Part shown: positions 32,831 to 62,100 of the stretch, piece by piece
How positions within the stretch are numbered: the first letter of the stretch is position 1
How the letters are laid out: each line of letters starts with the position of its first letter
Source: an uncultured Bacilli bacterium
GTDB lineage: Bacteria; Bacillota_I; Bacilli_A; RF39; UBA660
Assembly: GCA_934096945.1 (NCBI GenBank)
Contig: CAKOND010000005.1
Coordinates: 18,088 to 82,087 of the forward strand
DNA length: 64,000 nt
Direction: 5' to 3'
Position numbers and translations under genes: made by a program
Notes under the pieces: model-generated
The model's database searches: none
What the model saw: only the letters and a program-made list of their open reading frames with translations
What the model was told of the DNA's origin: nothing

Positions 32831-34618
32831 CTAATTTATTATGATTGGGTCTTCAGCTGTACCTTGGCCTGATTTATATGCCGTTGAAGATGAGAGACTG
32901 AAGGACGGGCGCACTCCATAGATGCCGTCCACACCGTCGTAGTTCACGAAACCATCGTAGTACACACCGAACGCATGGTACGAACCGCCCGCAGCACGGG
33001 AAATAGTCCATTCCAAGACTCCTCCATATAACCAATTTTCTCCCTTCGAAAATCTATAATCCTTTGTTGCATCAGTATTATTAAATCCAACCAATGTCCA
33101 CGCTCTTGGTCCTGCCGCATAATAATAATCACTTACATACATCAATCCTATTTTTGCTCTATATTCTGCTTTTCCATCTGTTGTATTTGTTGTTACTGCA
33201 TTTGTTATTTCATTTTGATATGCTACTGATGGTGTTTTTGAAGCTATATTTTCAAATGTATTTCCTCCAACTTTCCAGGTTGTTGTTGCTATTTTTTTTG
33301 CCCATTCTGTTCCAATGTTATTTAAAAAATTTGTATTTAAATTTACTTTATTTAAATTACTTTCACTCCATGTATTTTTTGCTGCAATATTCCAGAAATA
33401 TAATGAATTACTTGCTGGACTTTCTCCTTGTTCTCCACTAAAGTAAGATGAATATTCTTGTGAAAAAACTCCATCTGTTCCTAGTAAACTTGATTTTGCG
33501 TAATCCCATTTGATTAGTTTTACATTATTTCCAAATACTCCAATTATTCTATATAAATTTTCTGTTGGACATGGACTTGATGTCGAGCCAAAACATACAA
33601 AGTTATTTACATTATCTTTTGTCAAATATCCTTTTTCTACTGCTTTATTTAATGTTTCTTTATATGTTTGATACTGTGTTGTATCTCCCTTTATTAAATA
33701 ATAATGTGCTTGTGATGCATCGCATTCATAACCTACATATTGTTTCGTTCCATTACAATAAAAATCTATTAATGCTGTTGTTACTGTATTATTATATCCT
33801 ATCATCATTGTTGCTCCGGTTGCTTTTCCTGTTTCCGTTAAGACATAATCTCCGCCTGCATATCTGTAACTATTGTCACCTGCTCCGTTTGTGAGACTAC
33901 TATCATGATAATAGATATTATTAGCTCCTTGAGTTCCTGTATATAGTGATTTTACATGATCAGCTAATAAGTTTATCTTTTCCTTTTGTATCATCACTTT
34001 TGCACTCATACTTTTTCCTGCATTACCATTTTGATTAGCATCATAGTTTACAAATGTTAATTTTATATTCCACTTTTCTTCTTTACTTGGACTTGCTGTT
34101 ATTTCTCTATTATTAAATAGTGTTATAAGTCCATTCTTATTTGTTATATCATATCCTGATACTAATGCTCCACTTCCATCTGTTACTGATGTATGTGTTA
34201 ATCCTGATATATCTGTTACTTCTGTTCCTGCACTATTTGTAACTGTTAATATTAATTCTGGTGTACTTTCATTTATTGAATATGTAAATGAATTATTAGA
34301 AATATTTAAATATACATAATAATGTTCCGTCGCAGTATTTGTCTTATTATTTGCTGTAAGAGTTGCTTTTGCAAAAGTGCTTCCAACTGCATTACCTTTG
34401 CCACTTGCAAATGAACTTTGATCAGCATAGATACCTATATCATCACCTGTTGTAAAAGTAAATACATCTGTTGTATATGTTGTTACATTTAAGTTTGCTG
34501 ATGTTGGTTCTCCACCTTGGGCAGTAAAATATGCATATGTTGCTCCGATTAATAACAACATAAATGTTGTTATTGCTATTACACTTAATATTATTGGTTT
34601 ATTTTTATTATTTTCCAT
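32831..34618 (-). CDS. secreted/surface protein, paralog A; C-terminal lectin-like module with hypervariable cassette (putative DGR target)
   Basis: 595 aa. The N-terminal hydrophobic segment + GATYAYFTAQ resembles SipW-type (TasA/camelysin-class) signal peptides. The N-terminal ~215 aa and the C-terminal module are homologous to ORF 60697..62100. The C-terminus reads EWTISR...GVRPSFSL. Confidence 0.75.
   Translation of the reverse strand: MENNKNKPIILSVIAITTFMLLLIGATYAYFTAQGGEPTSANLNVTTYTTDVFTFTTGDDIGIYADQSSFASGKGNAVGSTFAKATLTANNKTNTATEHYYVYLNISNNSFTYSINESTPELILTVTNSAGTEVTDISGLTHTSVTDGSGALVSGYDITNKNGLITLFNNREITASPSKEEKWNIKLTFVNYDANQNGNAGKSMSAKVMIQKEKINLLADHVKSLYTGTQGANNIYYHDSSLTNGAGDNSYRYAGGDYVLTETGKATGATMMIGYNNTVTTALIDFYCNGTKQYVGYECDASQAHYYLIKGDTTQYQTYKETLNKAVEKGYLTKDNVNNFVCFGSTSSPCPTENLYRIIGVFGNNVKLIKWDYAKSSLLGTDGVFSQEYSSYFSGEQGESPASNSLYFWNIAAKNTWSESNLNKVNLNTNFLNNIGTEWAKKIATTTWKVGGNTFENIASKTPSVAYQNEITNAVTTNTTDGKAEYRAKIGLMYVSDYYYAAGPRAWTLVGFNNTDATKDYRFSKGENWLYGGVLEWTISRAAGGSYHAFGVYYDGFVNYDGVDGIYGVRPSFSLSSSTAYKSGQGTAEDPIIIN
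32900..33010 (-). repeat. putative DGR variable region VR-A (GC-rich, adenine-depleted cassette)
   Basis: See findings. It aligns gap-free with 60766-60876, and differences are almost exclusively at codon positions 1-2. Confidence 0.65.
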
Positions 34619-34829
34619 GTTATGACTTCCTTTTTTATCCTAAATTAATGATAACAAATATTTTATTATTTGTAAATAGTATACAGAAAAAAAAAGCTAC
34701 TACAAAATAATATAGTAACTTATAAATCTAAACTATTTTCATTTAACAAAAATTCAGTTTCTATTGAATTTAAAACTAATATATCCTCCATTACGAATTT
34801 TTTCCGTTTACGTACTTTTTTCGTAATGA

Positions 34830-35492
34830 TTATTTACTACTTTTAAAATTTTGATACCAATCATTTAGTTTATCTTTAGTACTTGAAAATAGTATTGATC
34901 CTGAATTTTTCACTAAATTAAAAGTACTTTCACTGAACTTCGCAAGTTCATCTTTAGCATATATAATTGAATTATAATTTTCTTCCCCTAGTTTTTCTTT
35001 AGCAAATTCATTTAAATTATTTGCTCCATTTGCAATAATTTCACTAGCTTTTTTATAAGCATTACTGGTTTTACTAGATATTTCTTCTTTATATCCTGGG
35101 GCTTTATTTTCAAGATGCATATCTATTTTACTAGCAAGTTCTAAAATTTTTTCTTTACCACTTGTTGTAAGCTTATCAAAAGTAACATTTTTTATGGTAC
35201 CATTAAAAAACAAAAAATCTACGATTGTTATAAATGTTTCTTTGGCTTTATCACTAAAATTAGGCAAATTTGCTTCTTTTTCTATACTATCTAAAGTATT
35301 ATTTAGCTCATTTATTACTAATAAATCATTATCACTATATGATGTACTTTCTTCTTTAGGCATTATTCTTTCTGTCTTTTCTTCATTACTTTTAAATATT
35401 ACATCTTTTTTAGTATAAACAATGCCTATTAAAATACCCATGATTAGAAATGTAATACCCACTCCTACAGTTATTAATGTGCTTTTTTTCAT
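34830..35492 (-). CDS. hypothetical membrane-anchored protein
   Basis: N-terminal TM helix and a helical K/E-rich ectodomain. Confidence 0.5.
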   Translation of the reverse strand: MKKSTLITVGVGITFLIMGILIGIVYTKKDVIFKSNEEKTERIMPKEESTSYSDNDLLVINELNNTLDSIEKEANLPNFSDKAKETFITIVDFLFFNGTIKNVTFDKLTTSGKEKILELASKIDMHLENKAPGYKEEISSKTSNAYKKASEIIANGANNLNEFAKEKLGEENYNSIIYAKDELAKFSESTFNLVKNSGSILFSSTKDKLNDWYQNFKSSK

Positions 35493-35504
35493 ATATTTAC
35501 CTTT

Positions 35505-36647
35505 CTATAATAAATTGTCATCAGTTTTTTCTTCATTAATATATTTTTTAGTTAAATTTCTATTTAAAATACTCATTAAATAATATCTATTAGTATGTAA
35601 ATTTGTTAAAAAGTCATAAATATCTCTTTCTTCATTTAAAATATATACTCGATCTTTAATAAATACTTTTTCGTCTACTTTTACATATAATTTGTCTATA
35701 TCATCTGAAAGTATTTCTCTTTTGTACTTGTTTATTCCCACGAACTTTATTGATTTTGTTATTCCATCTTTATGCCCGATTGGTACCAAAGCTACATACA
35801 TATCCTCTTTAGCTACATAACTTCGCCCTATTATTTTACCTTTAGGTACTTTTTTTATTTCCATTACTTCACTTGTAATATTAAATATTAATTCTAAGTC
35901 TATATTAGGAAACTCTAATACGCCATATTCTTTTTCTATTTTCCTAATCCTTCCTTTTGTAAATATATCATCATTTACATTCTCTTCAATACCTAAGATG
36001 GATAAATCAAATCTAATACCATTTACATATTTAATTTTGTTATGATACATGATTGGTTCATTTAAATGAATAATTAAATCATCATTTGCAAAAGATTTAA
36101 CTATTTTTAGAAAATTATTAACCTGTTCATAATAATATGCATCTTCAATACCAAAAGTAGTTATATCAGAATATAATCCTACTAATTTTAAATGCTTAGT
36201 TTCATTTATTTTATTAATAATGTATTCTAAATCACTTTTTTTATTTATTCCTTGTAAATTAGAGCCATTATCAATTAATACTTCAACATTTAAGTCATCT
36301 TTTAATTCTAAATTACATAATATATCAATATATTTTTTGTTATAAATTGTAATGGTTATATTATTATTTATACAATCATATATTTCATCCATTGTTACAT
36401 AATAACTTGCTAAAATACCAACATCTTTATTAAGTTTTCTTACCTTTAGAGCTTCTTTTAAAGATCCTACAAGTAAATAATTTATGCCATATTTAGCGAG
36501 TGTATTTACAATACCAAATCCCATGCCATGGGCATTATCTTTTAAATCTACTATTTTATATTTATAATCATCATAACTTTTAACAATTTTTTTGATATTT
36601 TCTTTTAATTTTTTTAAATCTATTTCTAAAATCGTTTCATACTTCAT
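35505..36647 (-). CDS. alr: alanine racemase family protein (divergent)
   Basis: VDLKDNAHGMG (cf. VKANAYGHG, PLP Lys), GRSYVA, VPIGHKDG (cf. PIGYADG). Confidence 0.7.
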   Translation of the reverse strand: MKYETILEIDLKKLKENIKKIVKSYDDYKYKIVDLKDNAHGMGFGIVNTLAKYGINYLLVGSLKEALKVRKLNKDVGILASYYVTMDEIYDCINNNITITIYNKKYIDILCNLELKDDLNVEVLIDNGSNLQGINKKSDLEYIINKINETKHLKLVGLYSDITTFGIEDAYYYEQVNNFLKIVKSFANDDLIIHLNEPIMYHNKIKYVNGIRFDLSILGIEENVNDDIFTKGRIRKIEKEYGVLEFPNIDLELIFNITSEVMEIKKVPKGKIIGRSYVAKEDMYVALVPIGHKDGITKSIKFVGINKYKREILSDDIDKLYVKVDEKVFIKDRVYILNEERDIYDFLTNLHTNRYYLMSILNRNLTKKYINEEKTDDNLL

Positions 36648-36731
36648 ATTTTTTACCTCGTAAAATTATTATAAAGTATAGACTAAAATTTTGCAATATG
36701 ATAAAATTATTTTACCAAGAGAATAAAATGG

Positions 36732-38084
36732 ATGAAACCAGATGAATTTCAATTAAAAGCTATAAAATGTGATAATAATGTTTTACTTATTGCAGGTGCG
36801 GGAGCAGGTAAAACCTATACAATTACGGAAAAAATAAAATATTTAGTTCAAGAAAAGAACTTAAAAGAAGATGAAATTTTAGTAATTTCATTTACAAATA
36901 AAAGTGTAAATGATCTAGTGAAGAAAATAAATTATAATGTAAATATTATGACTTTCCATAAACTGGCAATGAGTATCTTAGATGAATTTAAGGTAAATTA
37001 TAAATTAGTAAGTGATTCTTATTTAGAATTTGTTACTAATGAATATTTTAAATCACTACAAAATAAAGAAAACATTGATGAAATACTTAAATATTTTAAA
37101 AAATATAATTATGATGATTTTTTAAATAGTTATGATTATAAAGAACTAAAGATGCTTATAATAAATTTAATTAAAATATTTAAAACTAATAATAAAACTA
37201 AAGATGATTTTAAAAAATTATTTAAAATTGATTCTTTTTTAAGTAAATATACTTATATTATTAAATGTTTTTATGAAAATGATTTAGCATCTAGTAACTC
37301 TTTTGATTTTGATGATTTAATAATAAAAGCAACTCATGTTTTAAATAAGACTACTAAATATAAATATATTATTGTAGATGAATTTCAAGATACATCAAAT
37401 ATAAGATTTAATCTAATAAATAAAATTAGAGTTTTAAATAATGCTACTTTATTTTGTGTTGGAGATGATTATCAATCTATATATCACTTTTCTGGTTGTA
37501 ATTTAAATATTTTCTTAAATTTTACTAAATTAATTCCAAACTCTGTTATTTTAAAACTAAAGTACACTTACCGTAATAGTATAGAGCTTATAAGTGTTAG
37601 TTCAAGATTTGTTATGAAAAATAATTCCCAGATAAAAAAAGAATTATTAAGTAATAAACATTTAGATAGACCTGTAGAATTTATTTATTATTTAAACCCT
37701 AAAAGAGCATTTATAAAGATTTATAATAAACTTAAAATGAAGGGAGAATTACTTGTTTTAGGTAGAAATAATTTTGATATAAAAACTTTTAGCCAGGAAG
37801 AAATACCAGAGTTTATGAGTGTTCATTCTTCAAAAGGCTTAGAAAGTGATAATGTGATACTTTTAAATATGACTGATGGTATGTATGGGTTTCCTAATAA
37901 AATAATTAATTCTAAATTACTTGAAGAATTGCACCCATCTGATAAAAGTTTTTTATATGCAGAAGAACGTAGACTTTTTTATGTTGCTTTAACTAGGACT
38001 AAAAACAAAGTTTATATTTTAGTTCCAATTTTTAAAAAGTCGTCTTTTATAAAAGAACTTAAAAATTTGACAAAAGCCATATAA
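36732..38084 (+). CDS. compact UvrD/REP-type SF1 helicase (450 aa)
   Basis: AGAGAGKT (I), ISFTNKSVNDL (Ia), VDEFQDTS (II), VGDDYQSIYHFSG (III), YTYRNS (IV), VHSSKGLESDNV (V), FYVALTRTKNKVYIL (VI). It is much shorter than UvrD/PcrA, so the 1B/2B inserts appear reduced. Confidence 0.85.
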   Translation: MKPDEFQLKAIKCDNNVLLIAGAGAGKTYTITEKIKYLVQEKNLKEDEILVISFTNKSVNDLVKKINYNVNIMTFHKLAMSILDEFKVNYKLVSDSYLEFVTNEYFKSLQNKENIDEILKYFKKYNYDDFLNSYDYKELKMLIINLIKIFKTNNKTKDDFKKLFKIDSFLSKYTYIIKCFYENDLASSNSFDFDDLIIKATHVLNKTTKYKYIIVDEFQDTSNIRFNLINKIRVLNNATLFCVGDDYQSIYHFSGCNLNIFLNFTKLIPNSVILKLKYTYRNSIELISVSSRFVMKNNSQIKKELLSNKHLDRPVEFIYYLNPKRAFIKIYNKLKMKGELLVLGRNNFDIKTFSQEEIPEFMSVHSSKGLESDNVILLNMTDGMYGFPNKIINSKLLEELHPSDKSFLYAEERRLFYVALTRTKNKVYILVPIFKKSSFIKELKNLTKAI

Positions 38085-38123
38085 TAGCGTATAATAACTC
38101 ATACACAAAGGGGTGTTTTGGTC

Positions 38124-38780
38124 ATGTATTTTATTGGGTGTACTAAAGATAGTTTTACGCCAGAAATCGTTTTGGGTTCTGGGTGTGAAGGAAAAGTTTA
38201 TTATAATCAAAAAACTCAAGAAGCAGTTAAGATACATTATGATAATATAGGTAAAGAATCATTAAGTGAAGAGGATGCTTTAAAGTTATGTGATATTTCT
38301 ACTTCAAATATTTTACTTCCTAGAAGACTTATTTATGATGAAAATGGTGTTTTTTTAGGTTATACAACTAATTTTGTACCAAAATATAAACATGTTGAAG
38401 AACTAGATGTAGAGCATTATACTGTAGATTATTTAATTAATATTTTATCTAAGCTATACAAAGATGCACAATTAATGAGTGAAAAGGGCTTAGTTTTAAG
38501 TGATCTACTATCAGATGGAAATTATATATTTAATGGTAGTTATTATTTAACTGATCCAGGATTTTATCATTTTGTTGAAAAAGATATGAAGACAATTTTA
38601 ATAGAAAATATAAGAAAATTAAATGCGTTTTTGGATGCTACAGTTTTTTGGTGTAGGATAAACAATTTGCAGGAAGAACTTTTAAGAAGAAATGCTACTT
38701 ATACTATTTGTGATTATTTAAAAGATGAAGGCCAAAAAGATGAGACTTTAAATAGTTTGGTTAGAAGAAAGGTTTTATAA
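38124..38780 (+). CDS. minimal protein-kinase-fold protein, paralog 1
   Basis: G-loop-like GSGCEGKVYY, Lys motif EAVKIH, catalytic-loop-like LSDLLSDGNYIF, DFG-like LTDPGFY. ATG at 38124 after a GGGGTG SD (the track start at 38118 is TTG). Confidence 0.55.
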   Translation: MYFIGCTKDSFTPEIVLGSGCEGKVYYNQKTQEAVKIHYDNIGKESLSEEDALKLCDISTSNILLPRRLIYDENGVFLGYTTNFVPKYKHVEELDVEHYTVDYLINILSKLYKDAQLMSEKGLVLSDLLSDGNYIFNGSYYLTDPGFYHFVEKDMKTILIENIRKLNAFLDATVFWCRINNLQEELLRRNATYTICDYLKDEGQKDETLNSLVRRKVL

Positions 38781-39439: not shown

Positions 39440-39454
39440 TAAAACTATACATTA

Positions 39455-39480
39455 AAAAGCATGATTAAGATGCTTTTTTG
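39455..39480 (+). terminator. terminator of helicase/kinase-like operon
   Basis: AAGCAT-gattaag-ATGCTT followed by TTTTT. Confidence 0.65.
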
Positions 39481-39502
39481 TTTTATTTAAGCAAGAATTA
39501 AG

Positions 39503-39546
39503 CAAAATGAAAAGAACTCACATGAGCAAGTTCTTTTCATTTTTTA
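39503..39546 (-). terminator. terminator after pnp (bidirectional hairpin)
   Basis: GAAAAGAAC-(12 nt)-GTTCTTTTC flanked by A- and T-runs. Confidence 0.65.
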
Positions 39547-39552
39547 TAAAAA

Positions 39553-41721: not shown

Positions 41722-41764
41722 CCTTTCTAAAAATAAAAAGACACTAAAAACAAGTGCCCTTTAA

Positions 41765-42034: not shown

Positions 42035-42152
42035 AATATTTTTTCCTCCCACTTTCTTAATTGGTTTAATCATAGTATTGATTTGGAGATATCAAAACCA
42101 AGAATAAACTTCATATATTTATTATAATTTAAAACTCACTCTTTTGCAAGCA

Positions 42153-42918: not shown

Positions 42919-42919
42919 A

Positions 42920-44042: not shown

Positions 44043-44939
44043 CTACGCCTTTTTCCTCGCTAAAGCATATGCTTGTTCTATTAGATTTCCATTTTTTATT
44101 TTTTGGATTTGGTCACTTAATACCGCTTTTGTATAAAATACTGCTTCGCTAAGTTCTACGCCTTTATCAACAAATTGATACTTTTCTCTCATAAGTTGCC
44201 ATAATTCTTCATGCCTTTTAACAAATTCCTTATTTAAAAAAGCTGCACTTACTTCATTTAAATTCATTTTATACATAAGAAGCATAGTTTCAAAATATAA
44301 AGCAAATTTATCTGAATCATAATCTTTACCAAAAAGCATATAAATATCATAAAAGTCTTTAACTCTCGTATTTAAAACATCTTCTTTGGTATTATGGGCA
44401 ATAATGTAAAGTTTTTCTGCAATATGTTCTTCAAAAGATGGTGTATTTATATAAAATTTTTCATCACCTGTAAATAATGGTTCTACTGCTTTAAATTGAG
44501 TTTCAAAAATAACACGATTATTTTCTTTGTAATCAATTGGAACAGGTACTACCATTTCTTTACTACCTTCATACTTCACTTTAGCAATAACTGGTATTTT
44601 ATATACACCATTTTTTGTTTGTCTTGGTAAACTAGAAAGATCAAAAGATACGGTGTTACTATACATATCATAAATTGCTGCAAATAAAAGGTTAAGTGGT
44701 ATTTCATGTGATTTAATTGATGATAAATCTATATCTAGTACTGGTCTTGATAAGTTTCCTAAATGAACATACTGACTAAAACTTCCCTTAACTACTAGGT
44801 CACCATTATTTATTAAAGCAAGTTTAGAAAGTAATAATCTTGCATAATATGTGGTATAGGCAGCCATATATGAAATACCTAATCTATTAGCCTCTTTTTT
44901 CATATAAGCCTTTTCTTGATCCAAGTTATTAAATTTCAT
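44043..44939 (-). CDS. AbiEii/AbiGii-type nucleotidyltransferase (DUF1814) family protein
   Basis: LVVKGSFSQYVHLGNLSRPVLDIDLSS matches the vlKGG.a......R.t.DiDl NTase motif. ~300 aa. Confidence 0.65.
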   Translation of the reverse strand: MKFNNLDQEKAYMKKEANRLGISYMAAYTTYYARLLLSKLALINNGDLVVKGSFSQYVHLGNLSRPVLDIDLSSIKSHEIPLNLLFAAIYDMYSNTVSFDLSSLPRQTKNGVYKIPVIAKVKYEGSKEMVVPVPIDYKENNRVIFETQFKAVEPLFTGDEKFYINTPSFEEHIAEKLYIIAHNTKEDVLNTRVKDFYDIYMLFGKDYDSDKFALYFETMLLMYKMNLNEVSAAFLNKEFVKRHEELWQLMREKYQFVDKGVELSEAVFYTKAVLSDQIQKIKNGNLIEQAYALARKKA

Positions 44940-49930: not shown

Positions 49931-50407
49931 CTAAGTGCCACTATCTATTTTTAATTTTGCTTCAATTATTAATTGATTTCCTTTTACTATTTGGTCACAG
50001 GTAGTAAGTATTAACTTATTTTCTTCTTTTTTAATTTTTATTTTACCATTTTTCTTTACACTTTTTATATTTTTTACTTCATATTCAAGAGCTTTATCAG
50101 CAAACTTTAGGTATATTTTATCTTTATTTTTTATATATTTTAGATCATTAAAATAAGCAAGATGTCCGGTGCCAGAATGAGCTGCTAAAATGTATGTATT
50201 TGGAATGCCTGAATCAATAAATGTTACATTTTTATCTACATCATTTAATGAATTTCCAATATTGAAAAAACCATATGTCATATCTATACTTGGTATTATT
50301 AAATAACCGTAGTATTTTTCATAATCTAAAGATACTTCATTTTTTATTATATCTTTTTGGCATCCAGTTAAGAAAAGTAATAATATAACAATTATTATTT
50401 TTTTCAT
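49931..50407 (-). CDS. sortase family transpeptidase (small)
   Basis: Lipobox-like LTGC. AAHSGTG (His) and LILTTCD (TLxTC Cys); an Arg may lie near the C-terminus. Confidence 0.75.
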   Translation of the reverse strand: MKKIIIVILLLFLTGCQKDIIKNEVSLDYEKYYGYLIIPSIDMTYGFFNIGNSLNDVDKNVTFIDSGIPNTYILAAHSGTGHLAYFNDLKYIKNKDKIYLKFADKALEYEVKNIKSVKKNGKIKIKKEENKLILTTCDQIVKGNQLIIEAKLKIDSGT

Positions 50408-51774
50408 AAATTTTCTTTAAAGTAATACTTATTTTTAAAATATATTATGTTTTGAGTATTTATTTCAGTATTTGGAACATCAATTAATATTTCTTCATCA
50501 ATTGTTATATTTTCATCTTTTTTAAAATCTTTATTTGCATCATCATTTTCAAATTTTTCGTTTTCACCTAAAGTAGTATTGCCAGCGGATTCTATGCCAT
50601 CACTTGATTCGTTATTATCATTTGTAAGATTTGAAATTTCTTTTTCATTATTTCTTTTAACTGATGGTACATTATTTTCCTTGTCGAAAGAATTATCTTT
50701 ATCGTTTGGGCCTTGGTTATCATCCTCATTATTTAAAGAATCATTTTCATCATTTGAATTATTTTCCTTATCTAAATTTCCTTCATTATTTTCTTTGTTT
50801 TCATTATTTGAGCCTTGATCCTCTTCATTATTTTCTTCATCACCTGGTTTATTTTCATCGTTTAAATTTTCATCACCACTTGACTCATTTTCTCGGTTTT
50901 CAAAAGTTTCTTTATCATTTTCACCTTTTTCGGTTTCATCATTTTTGTTACCAGAATCTTCATTTTTTTCCCCATTTTTGTCATCATCATTAATAACCTC
51001 ATCTTTCTTACTATATTTGTAAAAGATACCTTCTAAAAATATATAGTAATATTTTGATTTATCACCCATGTCATATTCTTCACCATTTATAGTTATATAA
51101 TCTTCTGGAAAAACTGGATCATTAAAATAATAAAGTTTTCCTTTTCTAGTTACATTTTCTAAGTCTAATTCTTCTTCACTATATATGCCATCTATATAAT
51201 ACCTTGATAGATAAACAGTTGTCTCATTTAAAACGTTTTGTCTTGTGGTAAATCCGAATTTATTATCTTTGAAAAAATAAGTTCCTGGCAAAAGTGATAT
51301 TAGACAATCACCACCAATTTTGCAAGCAAATACTTGATTAAAATTTTCATCATAAATAGTTACATCAGTGTATCCATCTACAACTTCTATGTATTTTGCA
51401 TAACCTCTGTAAATGGTTTTGATAGTTACTTTTTTATATCTAAGTATTCTTTCAACTGTTATGATTTTACTTTCATCATAGACAATTATGTCATCTAATG
51501 GTTCATAAGCACTATTATACGTGTCTTCAACAAACCTAATATTTAAACCTTTGGCATACTTGTATTTCATATCACCAGTATTTAAATAAATTTTTTCCAA
51601 AAAGTCTCCGGTGTCCTCATTATAAACTTTAAAGGATATTCCGTTATAGGTGGTGTCAATATTAAACTCAGTGGTATTTAGATTATCACCAAAATAATAC
51701 TCCTTTGTTTCTTGGGCATAACAATTCATTATGCCAATTAGCATTAAAGCTAAAAATACTATAATTTTTTTCAT
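50404..51774 (-). CDS. secreted protein with long acidic N/E/D/K low-complexity C-terminal region
   Basis: Signal peptide MKKIIVFLALMLIGIMNCYA. A structured N-terminal half, then ~190 aa of DENKG-rich low complexity. 4-nt overlap with the sortase gene. Confidence 0.6.
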   Translation of the reverse strand: MKKIIVFLALMLIGIMNCYAQETKEYYFGDNLNTTEFNIDTTYNGISFKVYNEDTGDFLEKIYLNTGDMKYKYAKGLNIRFVEDTYNSAYEPLDDIIVYDESKIITVERILRYKKVTIKTIYRGYAKYIEVVDGYTDVTIYDENFNQVFACKIGGDCLISLLPGTYFFKDNKFGFTTRQNVLNETTVYLSRYYIDGIYSEEELDLENVTRKGKLYYFNDPVFPEDYITINGEEYDMGDKSKYYYIFLEGIFYKYSKKDEVINDDDKNGEKNEDSGNKNDETEKGENDKETFENRENESSGDENLNDENKPGDEENNEEDQGSNNENKENNEGNLDKENNSNDENDSLNNEDDNQGPNDKDNSFDKENNVPSVKRNNEKEISNLTNDNNESSDGIESAGNTTLGENEKFENDDANKDFKKDENITIDEEILIDVPNTEINTQNIIYFKNKYYFKENL

Positions 51775-54968: not shown

Positions 54969-57900
54969 GCCATCACCTCTATTTCTTTTACTTTGTTATC
55001 TAGTATTGAATATAAATATAAGTAAACTTCTTTATCACTTATACTTTTTACATAATCATAATATATACTTAATTGTTTAATATAGTTTTCATCATCTATA
55101 TTTTTAAGTTTGTAATCTATAATAAATATTTTGTCACTATACTCTAACATTAAATCTATAATACCATGATATTTAATATCATCTTTTTCAAACATAAACT
55201 CTAGTTCTTGATAAACTTCTGCATTTTTAAAATCAAAATTTTCTAATAATTTAGTTATATACTTATTATCAGTTTTGACAGTTTTAAAATCAGTTAATTC
55301 AAATATTTCATGCATTTGAGTACCAAATTCTAAAGTCTTAGCTTCTTCTTTAGTTAAAATGTTCTTTATTGTTTTAGATGCATGTTTCTTTTCTATTTCT
55401 TCATACAAAACTTCATCATCATATATGACCATTTCTTCTTTTGAGCTTTCTAAATTTCTGCTTATTGCTTTACTAAATTCATATTCTTTAGATAGACCAA
55501 TATTATTTAAATTAATACTTGTTACATATTTTGCTATATTACCATATATACTTTCTAAAAAATTATAAAATGACCTAAAATTTAAACCTTCCAGAAAATC
55601 CACTTCCTCGCAATGTCTAGTTTTATCTTTTACTTCAGGCATCACCATGATAATCTTTTCTTTAGCTCTGGTTAAAGCTACATAAAATAGTCTTATTTTT
55701 TCTGCTACTTCATTTAAATAATATTCATTTTTAACAAGTTGTTTAATAAACACTTCACCAATACCATCTTTATAATATGGCGATATAATTCCATACTTAT
55801 TATCAAACATAAATTTATTTTTTAAATCACTTAAATTAAATGTTTTGGGAAAACCTGTAAAATAACATATTGGAAATTCAAGTCCTTTTGATTTATGAAT
55901 ATTCATCATTTTAACAGATACACTACTTGATTTAGCTTCTTTATATTTTATTTCACTACCAGAAGCTGCTAAGTCTTCGAGATACTTACTAAAGTCTTCA
56001 CTTGTAAAACCTAAGCTTTCCACATTTTCAGCTAACCCTAGCAAATAATTCATTCTCTTTATACCAGCATCAACATTACCCACTAAAATAAATTTTTCAT
56101 AAAAATTAAAATCTTCAATAATTTTCTTTAAAAGCATACTAGGTGTTAGTTCATCTATAATCTCACTTATTTCTTTACAGATTTTAAATACTTCACTTCT
56201 AAATATGCCATGATTTTCTAAATCATTAAATATTTCAGCATCATTTAAGCCACCAATATAGCTTCTAGCAACACTAGTAAAATAATATCTAAACTTTTTA
56301 TCATAAACTTCATTTTTAATAGAAAAACATAAATTAATAATATTTTTAATAATATAAATATCATTTTCTTCCATTAGATTACTATCTTTATATATTTCCA
56401 TTGGTATATTAAAGTACTCAAATACTTTCTTAAATAAATTCATTTTACTACCACGATCAAGTATAATACAAAAATCATTATAAGTAGCTTTTCGATTTTT
56501 TTCTAAGTCAAAATCATATACTTCATAATCCTCAGTAATTTTCTTCTTAATATCATTTGCTATTATAAAAGCTTCAATTTCATCATTTGAATACTTCTTA
56601 TCATCATTATTATATGTATAAATATCCATATAATTATTGTTATTATTAGCCCCAAGAGTAACATAAGCCTTGTTACCAAATATCATAGCATGACTTTCTT
56701 TATAATTTATACCCCCGAGTTCTTTAGTCATAAGGCGAGCAAATATTTCATTAATATTAAATAAAACTTCTTCTCTTGACCTAAAATTTTTAAGTAAATC
56801 TATTTTTATACCACCATCATGATTACTATATTTATCATATTTATTTTTAAAAATTAAAGGATTAGCATTTCTAAATCTATATATAGATTGTTTTATATCT
56901 CCGACCATATAAACATTATTATTTTCTATATATTTAATAAAGTTTTCTTGTAAATCACTTGTATCTTGATATTCATCAATCATTATTTCATTAAATTTAT
57001 TTTTAAGCTCTTCTCTGATACTTTCGTTTTCTTCAACTATTTTAATAGCCATTTTAGCTATATCTGTAAATTCATAAGCATCAAATTCTTTCTTAAAAGC
57101 ATTTATTTTATCATCAAGTTTATGAATAATTTCTATAATTATTTCAGCATAATCTCTAGTACTTAAATATGCACTTTTTAATTCTTCTTCACTATAAAAT
57201 ATTAAGTCACTTAATGTTTTAAATGTATCTTGAATATTTTCTTTTAAAGCCTTACCTTCTTCATCTAATTTAGTAAACTTTTCTAAAGTACAATCTTTAT
57301 ACTTATATAAATCATTAAAGTTATGCGGAGAAAAAAGATTAGAAACACTATCATATAATTTTTGATAAGATGTACTATCCATAAACTCACCTATTTCAAG
57401 TACCATATTTTCTAAAGATTCAGCTAAAGATTTAACATATTTAAAGTATTCATCAAAACATTTATTTACATATTCATCACTATAAAAGTTATTTACATAA
57501 TTACCTAAATAATTCTCTTTATCATATTTTAAATCAAGTAATCTATTAATACTTAAAACTGAATCCTTTATTAATGCATCATCTCTGTTAGTAAAATCTT
57601 CAATTAATTTTAAAAATCTATCGTCTTTTTCTTCATAAAATTCTTCGAATATTTCTTCTAAAAATTCTTTTCTTTTTAAATTAATAATTGATGCATCAAT
57701 TATACTAATATCTTTGCTCATATTAAGAACATAATGATACTTTTTAACTAAATTTAAAGCAAATGCATCAAATGTGGTAATATATGCTTGATCTAAATAT
57801 TCAAGTTGGTCTTTTAAACCTGCTTTTTTTATTTTTTTTCTAATTCTATCAGCCATTTCTCCGGCAGCTTCATTAGTAAATGTTAGCATTAAAATATTTC

Positions 57901-58048
57901 TAATATCTATGCCATCTTTAAGTTTTCTTATCACTCTTTCTGATAATACTGCAGTTTTACCAGAACCAGCACCCGCAGATACTATAATATTTTTACCTTC
58001 TAAGTTAACTGCCTCATTTTGTTCAAAAGTTAAATTCATCTTTTCCAC
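54965..58048 (-). CDS. addA: helicase-nuclease AddA (ATP-dependent DNA helicase/nuclease subunit A)
   Basis: GAGSGKT, IDEYQDTS, VGDIKQSIYRFRNA, FYVALTRAKEK, C-terminal RecB-type nuclease (GIIDLM...IIDYKLK). Confidence 0.9.
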   Translation of the reverse strand: MEKMNLTFEQNEAVNLEGKNIIVSAGAGSGKTAVLSERVIRKLKDGIDIRNILMLTFTNEAAGEMADRIRKKIKKAGLKDQLEYLDQAYITTFDAFALNLVKKYHYVLNMSKDISIIDASIINLKRKEFLEEIFEEFYEEKDDRFLKLIEDFTNRDDALIKDSVLSINRLLDLKYDKENYLGNYVNNFYSDEYVNKCFDEYFKYVKSLAESLENMVLEIGEFMDSTSYQKLYDSVSNLFSPHNFNDLYKYKDCTLEKFTKLDEEGKALKENIQDTFKTLSDLIFYSEEELKSAYLSTRDYAEIIIEIIHKLDDKINAFKKEFDAYEFTDIAKMAIKIVEENESIREELKNKFNEIMIDEYQDTSDLQENFIKYIENNNVYMVGDIKQSIYRFRNANPLIFKNKYDKYSNHDGGIKIDLLKNFRSREEVLFNINEIFARLMTKELGGINYKESHAMIFGNKAYVTLGANNNNNYMDIYTYNNDDKKYSNDEIEAFIIANDIKKKITEDYEVYDFDLEKNRKATYNDFCIILDRGSKMNLFKKVFEYFNIPMEIYKDSNLMEENDIYIIKNIINLCFSIKNEVYDKKFRYYFTSVARSYIGGLNDAEIFNDLENHGIFRSEVFKICKEISEIIDELTPSMLLKKIIEDFNFYEKFILVGNVDAGIKRMNYLLGLAENVESLGFTSEDFSKYLEDLAASGSEIKYKEAKSSSVSVKMMNIHKSKGLEFPICYFTGFPKTFNLSDLKNKFMFDNKYGIISPYYKDGIGEVFIKQLVKNEYYLNEVAEKIRLFYVALTRAKEKIIMVMPEVKDKTRHCEEVDFLEGLNFRSFYNFLESIYGNIAKYVTSINLNNIGLSKEYEFSKAISRNLESSKEEMVIYDDEVLYEEIEKKHASKTIKNILTKEEAKTLEFGTQMHEIFELTDFKTVKTDNKYITKLLENFDFKNAEVYQELEFMFEKDDIKYHGIIDLMLEYSDKIFIIDYKLKNIDDENYIKQLSIYYDYVKSISDKEVYLYLYSILDNKVKEIEVMA

Positions 58049-58116
58049 CTCTTTTAATATCGCACATTAAATTTTGTTCATTCATACGGATATTTTATAA
58101 TTTATCCGTATCATCG

Positions 58117-60438
58117 TCAATTGGTTTTGCTATCTTCAAGTATTACTTCATCATCTTTTGTTTTAAAACATATATCTTTAAATTTACAATAAGTACATGC
58201 TATATTTTTACCACCAAGTACCTTGGGATTAATATTAAAATTACCTTCCACAATATTCTTTATAACATCATCTATAATCTCATTTACTTTAATTATTAAA
58301 TTATCCATCTCTTCATTAGATAACACTTTACTAGTACTATAAAAAGAACCATCTTTCTTAAATCTTAAACCTTTTATCATTTTACTATCTTTATAGTTAC
58401 TATCAAGAAGACTCATTATAGTTTCATTACTATTGGTATAGCCAGATAGTCTTAAGTTTTCTTTCTTTAAAGTTTCTAAAGACTTAACTTTATCTCTATT
58501 TAAAACATTATTAAGTACTCTTTCTATATAAAAACCTGCAATAATAGAGTCTTTAAATCTATCACTTGTTTTAAGTAAATATAAATATATTGGAAGTTGC
58601 ATATTAAGACCATATTCTAAAGTATCAAGTTTTATATTCTTATCCCCAGTTTTATAATCTACTACTGCTATTACTTCTTTATCATTATATTTAGTGGTCA
58701 TAACTTTATCTATAAAACCTTTAAAGTTCACCTTTACTCCATTATACTTTTTTTCCACATTAAGTTCTGTTTCAAATAAATAATCATTTAAACTACTTGT
58801 CTTTCTTTGTTCTTTTAAATATTTAAGTAAAAAGTCTATTTCTTTAGCAAGAATATGAATATAAAATAGTTCTCTTTCTTTAAATTCAAAATCTAATTCT
58901 TTAATAAATAAACTTATCTCTTTTTCAATATCTATTTCTTTATTTATACCAATCTCTAATATATGATGCACAATCTGTCCAATTATAGTTTTAAATGTTT
59001 CTTCAAAAACATCAAGATTTAATACTTTAGATAAATAATATCTAAAACTACATTCATTAAAATTTTCAAGACTTGTATATGAAAGTGTTACTCCTTCTTC
59101 AAGTCTTTCTTTAAGTAAAGTATTATCTACACTAGTAAATTTATTATTATATTCTCTATATGGAATATTTAGATTATTTTGATATATTTTTAAATACTTA
59201 CTTTCATCATTATATTTATATAAATTATCTAAATCCATAGCATACTCAAGTTCACTATATTTTTTGCTGAAAGACACTTTTTTATCTATATCTATTTTCT
59301 TTACCTCAAGTCCTAAATCTTCAATTAAGCTTGATGGATATAAAGCTCCATTATCGCCATGCATAGAATAACTTATACTTAAACTTGGAATATTATATAT
59401 TAAATTTATAACATTATCTTTATTTATCTTATTTATTTCTAAAGATGTATCAAGTCCTAATTTATTCTTTATATTATCACTTAAAAAGTCATCATCTTTT
59501 TCTACTTTAGGATAACTACCTATATTAAAGCCAAGTAAAAACACATAGTCACTTTCACTATAAACCTCTTCAAGAGAATGTAACTCTATAGCATTTTTAT
59601 ATATAGTATTACTAACTTTAGCTTGTTTTAAATCCCTTTTAATAAACTCTTTTCTTATATTTTTATTCTTTACTTGTACAGACTTATTTATAATAGTAAT
59701 AAGTTCATTTACATTACTATACTTACCACTTAAATATTCTATTACTTCATCTATTTCTTTATTATCATAAAATTTCAAAAATTCTTTAGAAATACTTAAA
59801 CTTAAAAAAGATGTACTACTTTCTATATTAATTGGTACTTTAAATAATTTAAAATAGTATTCTAAATGTTTATAATATTCTTTACTTGCAATTAGTTTGA
59901 TATTATTAATATTTATCCCTTTTTTAAGTAATTTCTTTATTTCAATAATTACATGCTCTACTTCTTCACATATATCTTTTGCTTCATATACACATGGCTT
60001 ATAACTATTTTTTTCTAATTTTTCTAATTTATAGTTAATACCATCTAAAATTAATTTTTCTTCTTTAGTTAATACATCTTTACCATAGATGGTAACTTTT
60101 TGATTAAGCATATATTTTCTAAATTTATCATCATATATAAGTAAATTTTGTTCATCTAATTCTTTTCTTAATTCATTTAAAAACTTTACTTTTTCATCAT
60201 CAATATCTTTTAAAAAGTATAAATTATCTAAATAAATCTTAGCTATATTAATATTTACATTATATTTATTTATAATATATTCTAAAGCTCTATCATCATA
60301 ATCAAAGAATAACTTTTTTTTAAGTTCTTTAAACCCTAAAAATTTATTATTATTAAATTTCTTTTCCATATTTATTTTCTTCAATAATTCTATTTTATTA
60401 AATTCATTAGTTATTACTACATTCATAATATACCTCAT
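58117..60438 (-). CDS. addB: AddB/RexB-like nuclease subunit (short, 773 aa)
   Basis: C-terminal PD-(D/E)XK + Fe-S pattern: CSFRYYL ... VDYKTGDK ... CTYCKFKDIC. It has no Walker A and is shorter than Bacillus AddB. The start could be the ATG at 60426. Confidence 0.8.
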   Translation of the reverse strand: MRYIMNVVITNEFNKIELLKKINMEKKFNNNKFLGFKELKKKLFFDYDDRALEYIINKYNVNINIAKIYLDNLYFLKDIDDEKVKFLNELRKELDEQNLLIYDDKFRKYMLNQKVTIYGKDVLTKEEKLILDGINYKLEKLEKNSYKPCVYEAKDICEEVEHVIIEIKKLLKKGININNIKLIASKEYYKHLEYYFKLFKVPINIESSTSFLSLSISKEFLKFYDNKEIDEVIEYLSGKYSNVNELITIINKSVQVKNKNIRKEFIKRDLKQAKVSNTIYKNAIELHSLEEVYSESDYVFLLGFNIGSYPKVEKDDDFLSDNIKNKLGLDTSLEINKINKDNVINLIYNIPSLSISYSMHGDNGALYPSSLIEDLGLEVKKIDIDKKVSFSKKYSELEYAMDLDNLYKYNDESKYLKIYQNNLNIPYREYNNKFTSVDNTLLKERLEEGVTLSYTSLENFNECSFRYYLSKVLNLDVFEETFKTIIGQIVHHILEIGINKEIDIEKEISLFIKELDFEFKERELFYIHILAKEIDFLLKYLKEQRKTSSLNDYLFETELNVEKKYNGVKVNFKGFIDKVMTTKYNDKEVIAVVDYKTGDKNIKLDTLEYGLNMQLPIYLYLLKTSDRFKDSIIAGFYIERVLNNVLNRDKVKSLETLKKENLRLSGYTNSNETIMSLLDSNYKDSKMIKGLRFKKDGSFYSTSKVLSNEEMDNLIIKVNEIIDDVIKNIVEGNFNINPKVLGGKNIACTYCKFKDICFKTKDDEVILEDSKTN

Positions 60439-60466
60439 TAATTAATACATTAATATTATATCATTA
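60421..60466. repeat. 46-bp direct repeat DR1 (addB start codon + leader)
   Basis: ATTCATAATATACCTCATTAATTAATACATTAATATTATATCATTA matches 62891-62936 at 44/46 positions. Weaker homology continues to ~60528 / ~62970. Confidence 0.9.
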
Positions 60467-60473
60467 AGCTACT

Positions 60474-60503
60474 TAAAAAGATAATGTTTTTTGCATTATC
60501 TTT
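60474..60503 (-). terminator. Rho-independent terminator of paralog-B transcript
   Basis: On the minus strand: AGATAATG-caaaaaa-CATTATCT followed by TTTTT. This lies in the 31-nt stretch that is absent from DR2. Confidence 0.7.
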
Positions 60504-60544
60504 GAAATTTTGAAACTCTACGTAATTATAATGGGGTTACTTAT

Positions 60545-60696
60545 AAGTATGTTGATAACTCGGCGCCGCTGCCTCACCTCGCACAAACCGCGAGACTCGG
60601 CAGTTGGGTCTTCCACCACGCCAATCTCTTCACTTCGCATTATTTTGCACCCGGCCTGACCTAGCACGCGGACGCGCTAGACAGGCATGTCCGATC
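60545..60696 (-). other. GC-rich (~60% by hand count) structured non-coding element 3' of paralog B, unknown function
   Basis: Hairpins CTAGC(A)CG-cgga-CG(C)GCTAG (60661-60680) and CTGCC-tcac-CTCGC-acaaacc-GCGAG-actc-GGCAG (60569-60603). There is no long ORF and no similarity to the VR. Confidence 0.5.
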
Positions 60697-62100
60697 CTAG
60701 TTTACCACAATCGGATCAGCGGCTGTGCCGCTTCCCGATGCATAGTTCACGGAAGATGAAAGATTGAAGGACGGCCGCACCGCAGTGCTGCTGTACACAA
60801 AGTTGTTGTACACGTAACCACCGAAGTACACAAAGAACGCACTGATCGAAATGTCCGCACTACGGGAAATAGTCCATTCTGTAGCACCTATATACATCCA
60901 ATTTGCACTTTTGATGTCTGTTCCATCATAATCATAAAAATTTGTTATCCATGCACTTGGGGCTGCTGCAAATCCATAATCACTTGCATACATTAAGCCT
61001 ATTTTTTTATTTACACTTGGTGATGAATTAATTTCATTTTGATATACTGCTTTGGCTGGTTGGCTAATGCTAATATTATTAAATCCTCCAACCTTCCATG
61101 TTGTTTCTGCTATATTACCTTTTGTTGTTTCATCAAATGCATTTAAAAAATCATTATTTAAATATGTATTTAGACTTGATGTTGACCATGTATTATTACC
61201 ATTACCATCCCAGGCTTTTCCTCCTACAGATGTTGATTTGATTAATTTTACTTGGTTTCCAAATACTCCTATTATTCTGTACAAATTATCTGTTGGACAT
61301 GGTGTTGTACTTCCAAAACATACAAAGTTATTTACACTTTCACTTGCTCCGGCATATCTATAACTATTGTCACCTGCTCCATTTGTTAGTGTACTAGTAT
61401 GATGATAAATATTATTTGCCCCTTGAGTTCCTGTAAATTTACTTATAACATAACCTGCTAATAATTGTTTTTTTTGTATCATCACTTTTGCACTCATGCT
61501 CTTACCAGCATTAGCACTTTGACTTGCATCATAGTTTACAAATGTTACTTTAATATTCCATTTTTCTTCTTTACTTGGGTTTGCAGTTATTTCTCTATTA
61601 TTAAAGAGTGTTATAAGTCCTGATTTATTTGTTATATCATAACCTGATACTTGAGTTCCATTTGCTCCAGTTACGATAACATGATTAAGTGTACTTATAT
61701 TGGTTACTTCATTACCACTACTATCTGTTACTGTCATTATTATTTCTGGTGTATTTTCATTTATTGAATATGTAAATGTATTACTTTCTATATTCAAATA
61801 CAAGTAATAATGTTCTGTTGCTGTATTTGTTTTATTATTTGCTGTGAGCATTGCACTTGCATATGTACTTCCTGTTTGATTTCCTTTTCCACTTGCAAAA
61901 TTATCTTGATTTATACTAAATGATATTGCACTACCACTTGAGAATGTAAATGTATCCACAGTATTTGCATTAACTTTGATGTCCGCTACTGCTGGATCCC
62001 CTACTTGAGCTTGAAAATATGCATATGTTGCAGTTACTACTGTGAGCGCTAATGCTACTATTGCTACTATACTTATTATTTTTGCCTTTTTATTTTCCAT
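60697..62100 (-). CDS. secreted/surface protein, paralog B; C-terminal lectin-like module with hypervariable cassette (putative DGR target)
   Basis: 467 aa. The signal segment + TATYAYFQAQ and residues ~70-215 are near-identical to paralog A. It lacks A's ~130-aa central insert. The C-terminus reads EWTISR...AVRPSFNL. Confidence 0.75.
   Translation of the reverse strand: MENKKAKIISIVAIVALALTVVTATYAYFQAQVGDPAVADIKVNANTVDTFTFSSGSAISFSINQDNFASGKGNQTGSTYASAMLTANNKTNTATEHYYLYLNIESNTFTYSINENTPEIIMTVTDSSGNEVTNISTLNHVIVTGANGTQVSGYDITNKSGLITLFNNREITANPSKEEKWNIKVTFVNYDASQSANAGKSMSAKVMIQKKQLLAGYVISKFTGTQGANNIYHHTSTLTNGAGDNSYRYAGASESVNNFVCFGSTTPCPTDNLYRIIGVFGNQVKLIKSTSVGGKAWDGNGNNTWSTSSLNTYLNNDFLNAFDETTKGNIAETTWKVGGFNNISISQPAKAVYQNEINSSPSVNKKIGLMYASDYGFAAAPSAWITNFYDYDGTDIKSANWMYIGATEWTISRSADISISAFFVYFGGYVYNNFVYSSTAVRPSFNLSSSVNYASGSGTAADPIVVN
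60766..60876 (-). repeat. putative DGR variable region VR-B
   Basis: Gap-free codon alignment with 32900-33010; see findings. Confidence 0.65.

What the first reader, a model, noticed from the sequence alone, without database searches (positions are those of the whole stretch)
32831..62100. No reverse transcriptase, Avd or template repeat near either putative VR: remote or orphan DGR targets
Canonical DGR cassettes place target-VR, avd, TR and RT within a few kb. Every long ORF between and around the two VR genes could be assigned to another family or looks like a membrane or hypothetical protein. I saw no RT-like ORF (no YxDD in an RT context) and no third GC-rich copy of the cassette anywhere in the 64 kb.

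So either a distant DGR (chromosomal, or on a prophage or plasmid) diversifies two remote chromosomal targets, or these are fossil VRs frozen after loss of the RT.
Basis: inference. Interest (0 to 1): 0.6.

Follow-up and report, generated by a model that had tools for sequence, protein, structure and literature searches.

The report
Remote targets of an unassembled DGR
Two surface-protein genes in this gut bacterium carry tips written by a mutagenic retroelement (DGR) whose template and enzyme lie at another locus missing from this incomplete assembly; one gene still looks like a usable remote target and the other looks frozen.

Summary
The 64-kb window has no reverse transcriptase, Avd, MutS-like accessory gene or template repeat (TR), and every gene between the two VR genes is ordinary.

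Both genes are genuine DGR targets. A TR found in near-conspecific assemblies differs from gene B's VR at 18 positions, all TR adenines. It differs from gene A's VR at 25 positions: 22 adenines and 3 non-adenines in the 3' recognition end.

They are two of about 25 paralogous DUF6273 surface proteins in a 1.19-Mb, about 70%-complete MAG.

In ten other assemblies the intact cassette (target, TR, MSL, bAvd, RT, small ORF) sits directly after the orthologue of paralogue C4_86789. That is exactly where our contig C4 ends. Its adjacent VR differs in all ten samples, so the cassette is active there.

The only DGR-type RT in this assembly (contig C15) is a fixed, frameshifted, truncated pseudogene from a second, dead DGR.

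Gene A's VR is invariant among diverged strains, so it looks frozen. Gene B has an intact 3' end and a downstream hairpin element, but only clonal copies were available, so its activity is untested.

Remote DGR targets, DUF6273 targets and MSL cassettes are all known. Read mapping was unavailable.

The parts
60697..62100 (-). Gene B (P0002, 467 aa): surface protein with an N-terminal membrane anchor or signal and a C-terminal DUF6273 domain. It looks like a competent remote DGR target.
   Evidence: ORF and translation. Pfam DUF6273 at 33.5 bits, above the 23.5 cut-off. One of about 25 paralogues.
60771..60869 (-). VR-B, 99 nt: 18 differences from the consensus TR of near-conspecific cassettes, all at TR adenines and none at the 65 other positions.
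60771..60783 (-). 3' end of VR-B (GCGGTGCGGCCGT), identical to the 3' end of the TR. This is the presumed homing-recognition (IMH-like) segment.
   Evidence: The function is inferred from the Bordetella phage DGR paradigm.
60548..60696 (-). GC-rich post-VR element of about 150 nt with two hairpins (window 60654-60686 and 60560-60624), ending in GTTATCAACA. The same element follows other targets and lies between target and TR in intact cassettes.
   Evidence: Sequence. Survey of downstream regions. Alignment with some compensatory pairs in hairpin 2. Fold of -59.2 kcal/mol, z = -1.59.
32831..34618 (-). Gene A (P0001, 595 aa): paralogue of gene B with a ~130-aa insert. It heads an operon with two downstream ORFs. 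It is a former DGR target that now appears frozen.
   Evidence: (DUF6273 E = 0.0035, below the cut-off).
32905..33003 (-). VR-A, 99 nt: 25 differences from the TR, 22 at adenines and 3 at non-adenines, the latter all in the 3' end (GGAGTGCGCCCGT against GCGGTGCGGCCGT). No post-VR element follows. The VR is identical in strains that differ elsewhere.
   Evidence: mismatches; no element; strain invariance.

Best explanation
Both window genes carry variable regions that were written by mutagenic retrohoming from one template repeat lying outside the window. The cassette is of the MSL + Avd type: target, GC-rich hairpin element, TR, MutS-like ORF, bAvd, RT, 84-aa ORF. In near-conspecific assemblies it sits directly downstream of the orthologue of paralogue C4_86789. 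In this MAG that spot is the end of contig C4, and the far flank is also unassembled, so the cassette most probably exists in the organism but is missing from the assembly (inferred). Gene B retains everything a target is expected to need: a perfect non-adenine scaffold, a 3' end identical to the TR, and the downstream hairpin element. It is therefore most likely a live remote target (inferred, not shown). Gene A has mutations in its 3' recognition end and no hairpin element, and its VR does not change among strains, so it is a former target that has dropped out and frozen (supported by data). A second DGR of the same RT clade, next to a paralogue with a different VR scaffold ('group B'), is dead: its RT on contig C15 is a truncated, frameshifted pseudogene fixed in the species.
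For: (1) VR pattern: invariant GC-rich codons alternate with NNY codons across paralogues. Among the five best paralogues, TR-non-A positions are 91% identical against 71% in the upstream 45 codons, and TR-A positions are 32% identical. (2) TRs found in relatives have A at 11 of 12 variable sites. Against the consensus TR from L063-L072, gene B has 18/18, C4_86789 22/22 and gene A 22/25 mismatches at adenines. (3) An intact cassette with a 359-aa RT is syntenic with the C4 end in 9 of 10 loci; the tenth (L069, a frameshift-prone assembly) has fragmented calls. Identity to C4 is 90-98.4%. None of the far-flank genes are in G000. (4) The cassette is active: 10 distinct adjacent VRs in 10 samples, differing from the TR at adenines only in 7 of them. 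In G011's species there are at least 10 distinct VRs among 15 cluster members. (5) Of 56 species representatives in the genus, only G000 has sites with 0 non-A mismatches, namely C4_86789 and gene B. (6) Gene A's VR is identical in strains 0.4-0.6% diverged. Other paralogues with altered 3' ends (C21, C1_34928) are also invariant among protein variants. (7) The C15 RT pseudogene has shared frameshifts in 5 assemblies.
Against: No TR, Avd, MSL or intact RT is present in this assembly. One 99.7%-identical contig from another sample (L060) diverges from C4 before the HTH-target segment, so the cassette locus may be strain-variable or absent in some strains. Gene B's VR is identical in the only other assemblies that carry it, but those are 100% identical clones over 5 kb and so are uninformative. 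The role of the post-VR element in homing is inferred; its fold is not better than shuffled sequence (z = -1.59) and covariation is modest. The C-type-lectin fold of the domain was not confirmed here (pLDDT 63, no significant PDB match).
Confidence: 0.68

Rival explanations
1. All VRs in this strain are orphans. The strain (or species) has lost its last working DGR, the cassette after C4_86789 is deleted or never present, and both window VRs are frozen relics.
For: The only DGR-type RT in the assembly is a fixed pseudogene. No Avd, MSL or TR is present. VRs of eight paralogues are invariant among strain variants apart from two exceptions (P0014, a single L->F; P0011, a 3'-end swap). L060 shows a different arrangement after C4:85880. 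RT decay is recurrent in the genus.
Against: The syntenic site of the cassette is exactly at a contig end, and the whole far flank is missing from the MAG. Cassettes of this kind assemble as separate ~3-kb contigs (L025) that binning can drop. Gene B and C4_86789 have 0 changes at 65 non-adenine positions, unlike the clearly frozen paralogues, which have 3-9. Near-conspecific strains (up to 98.4% identity) carry an intact, active cassette.
Confidence: 0.25
2. Both window genes are currently diversified remote targets of the distant cassette.
For: Both VRs show the adenine-specific pattern. DGRs can act in trans on remote targets (PMC5758913).
Against: Gene A has 3 non-adenine changes in its 3' end, lacks the hairpin element, and is invariant in strains 0.4-0.6% diverged. 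At comparable divergence an active target shows a different VR in most samples.
Confidence: 0.05
3. There is no DGR. The cassettes reflect ordinary paralogue divergence, gene conversion or diversifying selection on a loop.
For: Gene-conversion patches between paralogues do occur (30 substitutions within nt 184-486 of gene A in L039 and none elsewhere in 7.8 kb).
Against: A non-coding template with adenines at precisely the variable positions exists next to an RT in relatives. 18 of 18 and 22 of 22 mismatches fall on the 34 adenines of a 99-nt TR. The synonymous GC-rich scaffold is conserved in a 27% GC genome.
Confidence: 0.02

Closest known systems
MSL-containing DGRs ('Architecture D' of Wu et al. 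2018, PMC5758913), e.g. the Legionella DGR
   Same: The cassette in relatives has a TR, a small MutS-domain-I-like ORF (PF01624, E = 1.1e-5), a bAvd-like four-helix protein (PF22296, E = 3.9e-6) and a DGR-type RT with IGNMTSQ and YMDD motifs. Mutagenesis is adenine-specific.
   Different: Here the TR precedes MSL-Avd-RT, and a second small ORF with a faint MutS_I resemblance (E = 0.11) follows the RT. The host is an uncultured, small-genome gut Bacilli lineage. None of the cassette is in the window or in this assembly.
Treponema denticola DGR (TvpA) and other DGRs with remote targets (cyanobacteria, Thiohalocapsa 'pink berry')
   Same: One TR appears to serve a cassette-adjacent target plus non-adjacent paralogous targets elsewhere on the chromosome. 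The targets are surface or ligand-binding proteins.
   Different: In this assembly only one remote VR (gene B) is fully TR-compatible. Most paralogues show graded decay of the scaffold and 3' end. Remote activity is not shown here.
DUF6273 DGR targets of gut phages and prophages (tentaclins, PMC10743442; Faecalibacterium prophages, PMC11792537)
   Same: The VR lies at the C-terminus of a DUF6273 domain, which those papers model as C-type-lectin-like.
   Different: These are chromosomal cellular genes with an N-terminal membrane anchor, expanded to about 25 copies. No phage structural genes are adjacent. The C-type-lectin fold was not confirmed by my own model.
Bordetella phage BPP-1 DGR (mtd/avd/TR/brt)
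   Same: Adenine mutagenesis, the VR at the 3' end of the target gene, 3' sequence identity between VR and TR, and a GC-rich hairpin with a 4-nt loop downstream of the VR.
   Different: The hairpin element here starts about 85 nt after the VR end, beyond the stop codon, and is about 150 nt long with two stems. An MSL accessory gene is present. There are multiple chromosomal targets.

Membership tests
Diversity-generating retroelement (target/VR side) | VR differs from a cognate TR almost exclusively at TR adenines | tested here: met
   Against the consensus TR of L063-L072: gene B 18/18, gene A 22/25, C4_86789 22/22 mismatches at adenines. The TR itself comes from other assemblies, not this one.
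Diversity-generating retroelement (target/VR side) | VR at the 3' end of the target ORF, in a C-type-lectin-like or Ig-like ligand-binding domain | tested here: inconclusive
   The VR lies about 25 codons before the stop. Pfam DUF6273 is above the cut-off for gene B and below it for gene A. The AlphaFold model had pLDDT 63 and gave no significant PDB match. The literature models DUF6273 as C-type-lectin-like (PMC10743442).
Diversity-generating retroelement (target/VR side) | Recognition elements for homing: IMH-like 3' end matching the TR, and a downstream hairpin | tested here: inconclusive
   Gene B has a 3' end identical to the TR plus a conserved two-hairpin element. Gene A has 3 mismatches and no element. 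Function is not testable in silico.
Diversity-generating retroelement (cassette side) | DGR-clade RT with the (I/L/V)GxxxSQ motif, encoded near a TR | tested here: not met
   Not in the window. In this assembly it exists only as a pseudogene without a TR (C15:140-883). It is intact and TR-adjacent in near-conspecific assemblies at the locus syntenic with the C4 end.
Diversity-generating retroelement (cassette side) | Accessory gene (Avd, HRDC or MSL) | tested here: not met
   None in this assembly. bAvd-like and MutS_I-like ORFs are present in the relatives' cassettes.
Diversity-generating retroelement (activity) | VR varies among cells or strains while the flanks and TR stay constant | tested here: inconclusive
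   Cis-target: 10 distinct VRs in 10 samples with an almost invariant TR; at least 10 of 15 distinct in G011's species. Gene A: invariant in 4 assemblies. Gene B: only clonal copies were available.

The most novel reading that the evidence does not exclude
In this small-genome gut lineage one DGR cassette acts as a paralogue factory. It rewrites its adjacent target and any duplicated copy that keeps the 3' recognition end and hairpin element. Copies that mutate these elements drop out and become fixed-specificity surface proteins. That would yield the observed family of about 25 members, with a graded series from live VRs (0 scaffold changes) to fully eroded AT-rich fossils. On this reading the window holds one live remote target (gene B) and one recently released copy (gene A).
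Probability: 0.35. Interest if true: 0.7.

Novelty: new member of a known kind. Interest (0 to 1): 0.48.

Why it matters
The lack of an RT near the VRs has an ordinary explanation: remote targets plus an incomplete MAG. Even so, the system is a useful natural experiment. Within one genome there is a series of paralogous VRs, from perfectly TR-compatible to eroded, and the loss of variability tracks mutations in the 3' recognition end and loss of the downstream hairpin element. That can be used to define what a remote DGR target needs. The cassette is very common in human gut metagenomes (its small ORF appears in 1,214 index blocks). It belongs to an uncultured lineage with 1.0-1.4-Mb genomes that devotes roughly 3% of its DNA to this protein family. 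It also gives a concrete case of DGR death by RT decay, which theory papers have only postulated.

Tried and rejected
(1) I first concluded that all VRs were fossils. That rested on the RT pseudogene on C15, the absence of Avd/MSL/TR, and VR invariance among strains. I revised it after finding that contig C4 ends exactly where near-conspecific assemblies carry an intact, active cassette, and that the far flank is missing from the MAG.
(2) I took the start of C15 for a TR 3' end. It is the 3' end of a 649-aa group B target gene, read through in L045.
(3) The short family fragments (C4:11241-11741, C8:15571-15977, C1:21827-21918) were TR candidates. They are decayed pseudogene pieces.
(4) The PF05635 search for Avd was a weak test, because that model barely detects this lineage's bAvd (E = 0.042). 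I replaced it with a direct tblastn.
(5) Fold assignment of the domain failed: the model was moderate and there was no significant Foldseek or PDB-sequence match.
(6) Strain sampling at the gene B locus through three neighbouring genes returned only clonal copies or contigs broken before the VR. A 36-mer scan of metagenome contigs gave 0 hits.
(7) The group B template was not found; the six scaffold hits in species genomes are VRs.
(8) Two contig look-ups were wasted, one on a truncated query and one on a wrong start codon.
Full report
SETTING. The window is contig C5:18088-82087 of a MAG of 1.19 Mb in 33 contigs, 27% GC and about 70% complete. Related records are uncultured human-gut Bacilli/'Tenericutes' MAGs such as CAG:460, CAG:609, UMGS1410 and Hadza MAGs. 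Same-genus genomes are 0.7-1.7 Mb, mostly 1.0-1.4 Mb.

THE OBSERVATION. The finding spans two minus-strand genes. Gene A is at 32831-34618 (P0001, 595 aa) and gene B at 60697-62100 (P0002, 467 aa). They are paralogues with an N-terminal hydrophobic anchor and a C-terminal DUF6273 domain. Gene B scores 33.5 bits against a 23.5 cut-off; gene A has E = 0.0035, below the cut-off. No RT is on contig C5: RVT_1 at E<=10 hits only C24, C22 and C15. tblastn with the RT, bAvd, MutS-like ORF and small ORF of relatives' cassettes finds nothing on C5. No adenine-rich copy of the cassette scaffold exists anywhere in the assembly. The ORFs from 29.8 to 64 kb, which include the whole interval between the two genes, are housekeeping genes, one AbiEii toxin and some ORFs with no Pfam family.

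ARE THESE REALLY VRs? Yes. The two genes belong to a family of about 25 full-length paralogues plus fragments spread over the assembly. Nearly all have a 3' cassette of 50-68% GC in a 27% GC genome. In codon register, invariant GC-rich codons (GCG, TCG, GCG-TTC, GTG, GGT...) alternate with NNT/NNC codons that vary only at positions 1 and 2. Among the five best-preserved paralogues the pattern is clear: template-non-A positions are 91% identical (gene B against C4_86789: 59/59), while the 45 codons upstream are only 71% identical (third positions 66%). Template-A positions are 32% identical, close to random. This is an overwrite from a common template after the paralogues diverged, not drift.

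THE TEMPLATE. Scanning species-representative genomes with the scaffold found 24 loci. Three of them (L024, L025, L026) carry a non-coding copy with A at 11 of 12 variable sites, that is, TRs. Each lies in a full cassette: target, GC-rich element, TR, a MutS-domain-I-like ORF of about 124 aa (PF01624, E = 1.1e-5), a bAvd-like ORF of about 118 aa (PF22296, E = 3.9e-6), a 359-aa RT (RVT_1, IGNMTSQ...YMDD) and an ORF of about 84 aa. This is the MSL + Avd architecture already described by Wu et al. 2018 (PMC5758913).

WHERE IS THE CASSETTE FOR THIS GENOME? My first reading was that it had been lost. The only DGR-type RT in the assembly, C15:140-883, lacks about 43 N-terminal and 88 C-terminal residues and has two frameshifts. 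It directly follows the 3' end and hairpin of a 649-aa paralogue with a different VR scaffold ('group B'), with no TR, MSL or Avd between them. Five independent assemblies share the same lesions, so it is a fixed pseudogene.

Contig C4, however, ends 33 nt after the stop of paralogue C4_86789, inside a repeated GC-rich element. A look-up of the cassette's 84-aa ORF returned ten long contigs from different samples. In each, the cassette sits at the locus syntenic with the C4 end: 322-aa gene, repeated ~300-aa gene, HTH, target, MSL, Avd, RT, orf80. The RT is an intact 359-aa ORF in nine of the ten; L069, a frameshift-prone assembly, has fragmented calls. Identity to C4 is 90-98.4%. None of the genes beyond the cassette (endolysin-like, AbiEii, an amino-acid ABC transporter) are present anywhere in our MAG. 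The whole region is therefore simply missing from the assembly. L025 shows that such a cassette can assemble as a lone 2.9-kb contig, which binning can easily lose.

THE FIT TO THE WINDOW. Eight of the ten loci share one 99-nt TR. Against it:
- Gene B's VR has 18 differences, all at adenines.
- C4_86789 has 22, all at adenines.
- Gene A has 25: 22 at adenines and 3 at non-adenines, the latter all in the last 13 nt (GGAGTGCGCCCGT against GCGGTGCGGCCGT).
Of 56 species representatives of the genus, only this genome has sites with zero non-adenine mismatches, and it has exactly two: C4_86789 and gene B. Other paralogues are progressively eroded (C21 has 4, C1_34928 has 9), and some are fully AT-rich.

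ACTIVITY. The cassette-adjacent VR differs in all ten samples. In seven of the ten it differs from an almost invariant TR only at adenines. In a sister species with an intact cassette (G011), 15 members of the target's 90% cluster carry at least 10 different VRs, while the rest of the 643-aa protein is 96-100% identical. This serves as a positive control for the strain test.

In our species the picture is different. Gene A's VR is identical in assemblies whose 7.8-kb locus differs by 0.4-0.6%, and in protein variants that differ at 8-14 residues. The paralogues C21, C1_34928, C3_4141 and C2, and the RT-adjacent group B gene, also keep their VRs among variants. There are two exceptions: C10 shows a single L->F change, and one C1_34928 variant (P0011) has its whole 3' ~100 codons swapped. 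The differences that do occur are tight patches, for example 30 substitutions in nt 184-486 of gene A and none elsewhere in 7.8 kb. That indicates gene conversion between paralogues.

For gene B the only other copies are 100% identical clones over 5 kb, so they tell us nothing. More divergent strains have contigs that break before the VR.

THE POST-VR ELEMENT. About 150 nt of roughly 55-60% GC follows gene B's stop codon (window 60548-60696). It forms a 14-bp hairpin with a 4-nt loop (60654-60686) and a second hairpin (60560-60624), and ends in GTTATCAACA. The same element follows C17_6518, C1_34928 and C4_86789. A short form follows group B genes. It also lies between target and TR in intact cassettes across species. 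Hairpin 2 has four pairs with compensatory changes. The fold energy is not exceptional for this composition (z = -1.59). Gene A has no such element; the next gene's ribosome-binding site follows within about 50 nt. By analogy with the Bordetella phage DGR, I infer that the element assists target recognition. This is not shown.

MECHANISM AND CONFIDENCE.
- Shown: both VRs were templated by a TR of the type found in L063-L072. That cassette is intact and active in near-conspecific populations, at a locus whose counterpart here is an assembly gap. Gene A's VR is static. A second DGR is dead.
- Inferred: this strain still has the cassette (about 0.65-0.7). Gene B is still rewritten in trans (about 0.5). 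Gene A dropped out because of 3'-end mutations and loss of the element.
- Main rival: complete loss of the cassette in this strain (about 0.25).

COMPARISON AND NOVELTY. Remote DGR targets are known (Treponema, up to seven non-adjacent targets; cyanobacteria; Thiohalocapsa). So are MSL accessory genes (PMC5758913) and DUF6273 as a VR-bearing, C-type-lectin-like domain (PMC10743442, PMC11792537). My own structure model could not confirm the fold. This is a new member of a known kind. Its distinguishing points are the size of the target family in a very small genome, the graded live-to-fossil series of VRs that tracks recognition-element decay, and a co-resident dead DGR. The specific puzzle of the finding, no RT near the VRs, is explained by remote targeting together with an incomplete assembly.

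Noticed in passing
G000 contig C15:1-883 (locus L003); also L042-L046: A DGR-type RT pseudogene with IGNMTSQ and YMDD motifs, two frameshifts and both ends truncated. It is fused directly after the hairpin of a 649-aa group B family gene and sits next to uppP. The same lesions occur in five independent assemblies. A shorter remnant of the same junction is at C20:140-248.
   Followed up: yes
G000 contigs C3:4141-5688, C10:10267-11772, C18:11376-12866, C19:25-1398 (and the C15 and C20 starts): A second VR scaffold ('group B', ACGCCT NNT TCT NCG ... GGCGNCCGTCCAGTC) with its own short downstream hairpin. No matching template was found in this genome or in six hits in species genomes, so these may be true orphan VRs.
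   Followed up: partly
window 33.9-34.5 kb (gene A nt 184-486), seen against locus L039: 30 substitutions clustered in 300 nt of gene A and none elsewhere in 7.8 kb. A similar patch occurs at nt 1014-1044 against L038. This indicates gene conversion among paralogues as a second, DGR-independent route of variation.
   Followed up: partly
G000 contigs C21:~1300-1558, C20:1856-2100, C2:69577-69800: The same sequence, TTGACGGACAGTTTTGAAAAAACATCGG..., abuts the stop codon of three family genes in place of the GC-rich post-VR element. It looks like a remnant of an insertion element that displaced the element.
   Followed up: no
G000 C4:84834-85805, with ~88-90% copies on C1, C2 and C12 and a shorter ~78% partial copy on C20: A repeated gene of about 300-320 aa lies just upstream of the cassette locus. 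Contig L060 from another sample diverges from C4 exactly at its end, which suggests recombination at this repeat or strain-variable content.
   Followed up: partly
loci L025:368-622, L026:3234-3479, L047 (flipped) 6716-6961: The conserved ~81-84-aa ORF after the RT gives a faint MutS_I hit (E = 0.11). The cassette may therefore carry two MutS-domain-I-like small proteins flanking Avd-RT. This ORF occurs in 1,214 index blocks of public assemblies.
   Followed up: no
G000 C24:1034-1984 and C22:9230-10693 (loci L001, L002): Two non-DGR reverse transcriptases. One is a retron-type RT (best match retron St85, E = 3e-36) upstream of large helicase-like ORFs. The other is a Drt3b/Drt4-like RT directly after what looks like a type I restriction-modification operon. 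Both look like defence islands.
   Followed up: no
window 6428-6527 (-): Rfam DUF3800-VII RNA (61 bits, above the gathering score), next to a tRNA cluster.
   Followed up: no
window 25654-25828 and 25938-26112: A 175-nt direct repeat at 99% identity, 284 nt apart, straddling the 3' end of an ORF on the minus strand.
   Followed up: no
window 60398-60466 and 62868-62936: A 69-nt repeat at 86% identity covering the start regions of the AddB-like gene and the 136-aa AAA_14 gene, on either side of gene B. It is possibly a shared promoter or leader.
   Followed up: no
window 44043-44939 (-) and 49931-51774 (-): An AbiEii-family toxin gene without an obvious AbiEi partner call. Separately, a sortase gene is translationally coupled to an upstream 456-aa ORF with no Pfam family.
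   Followed up: no
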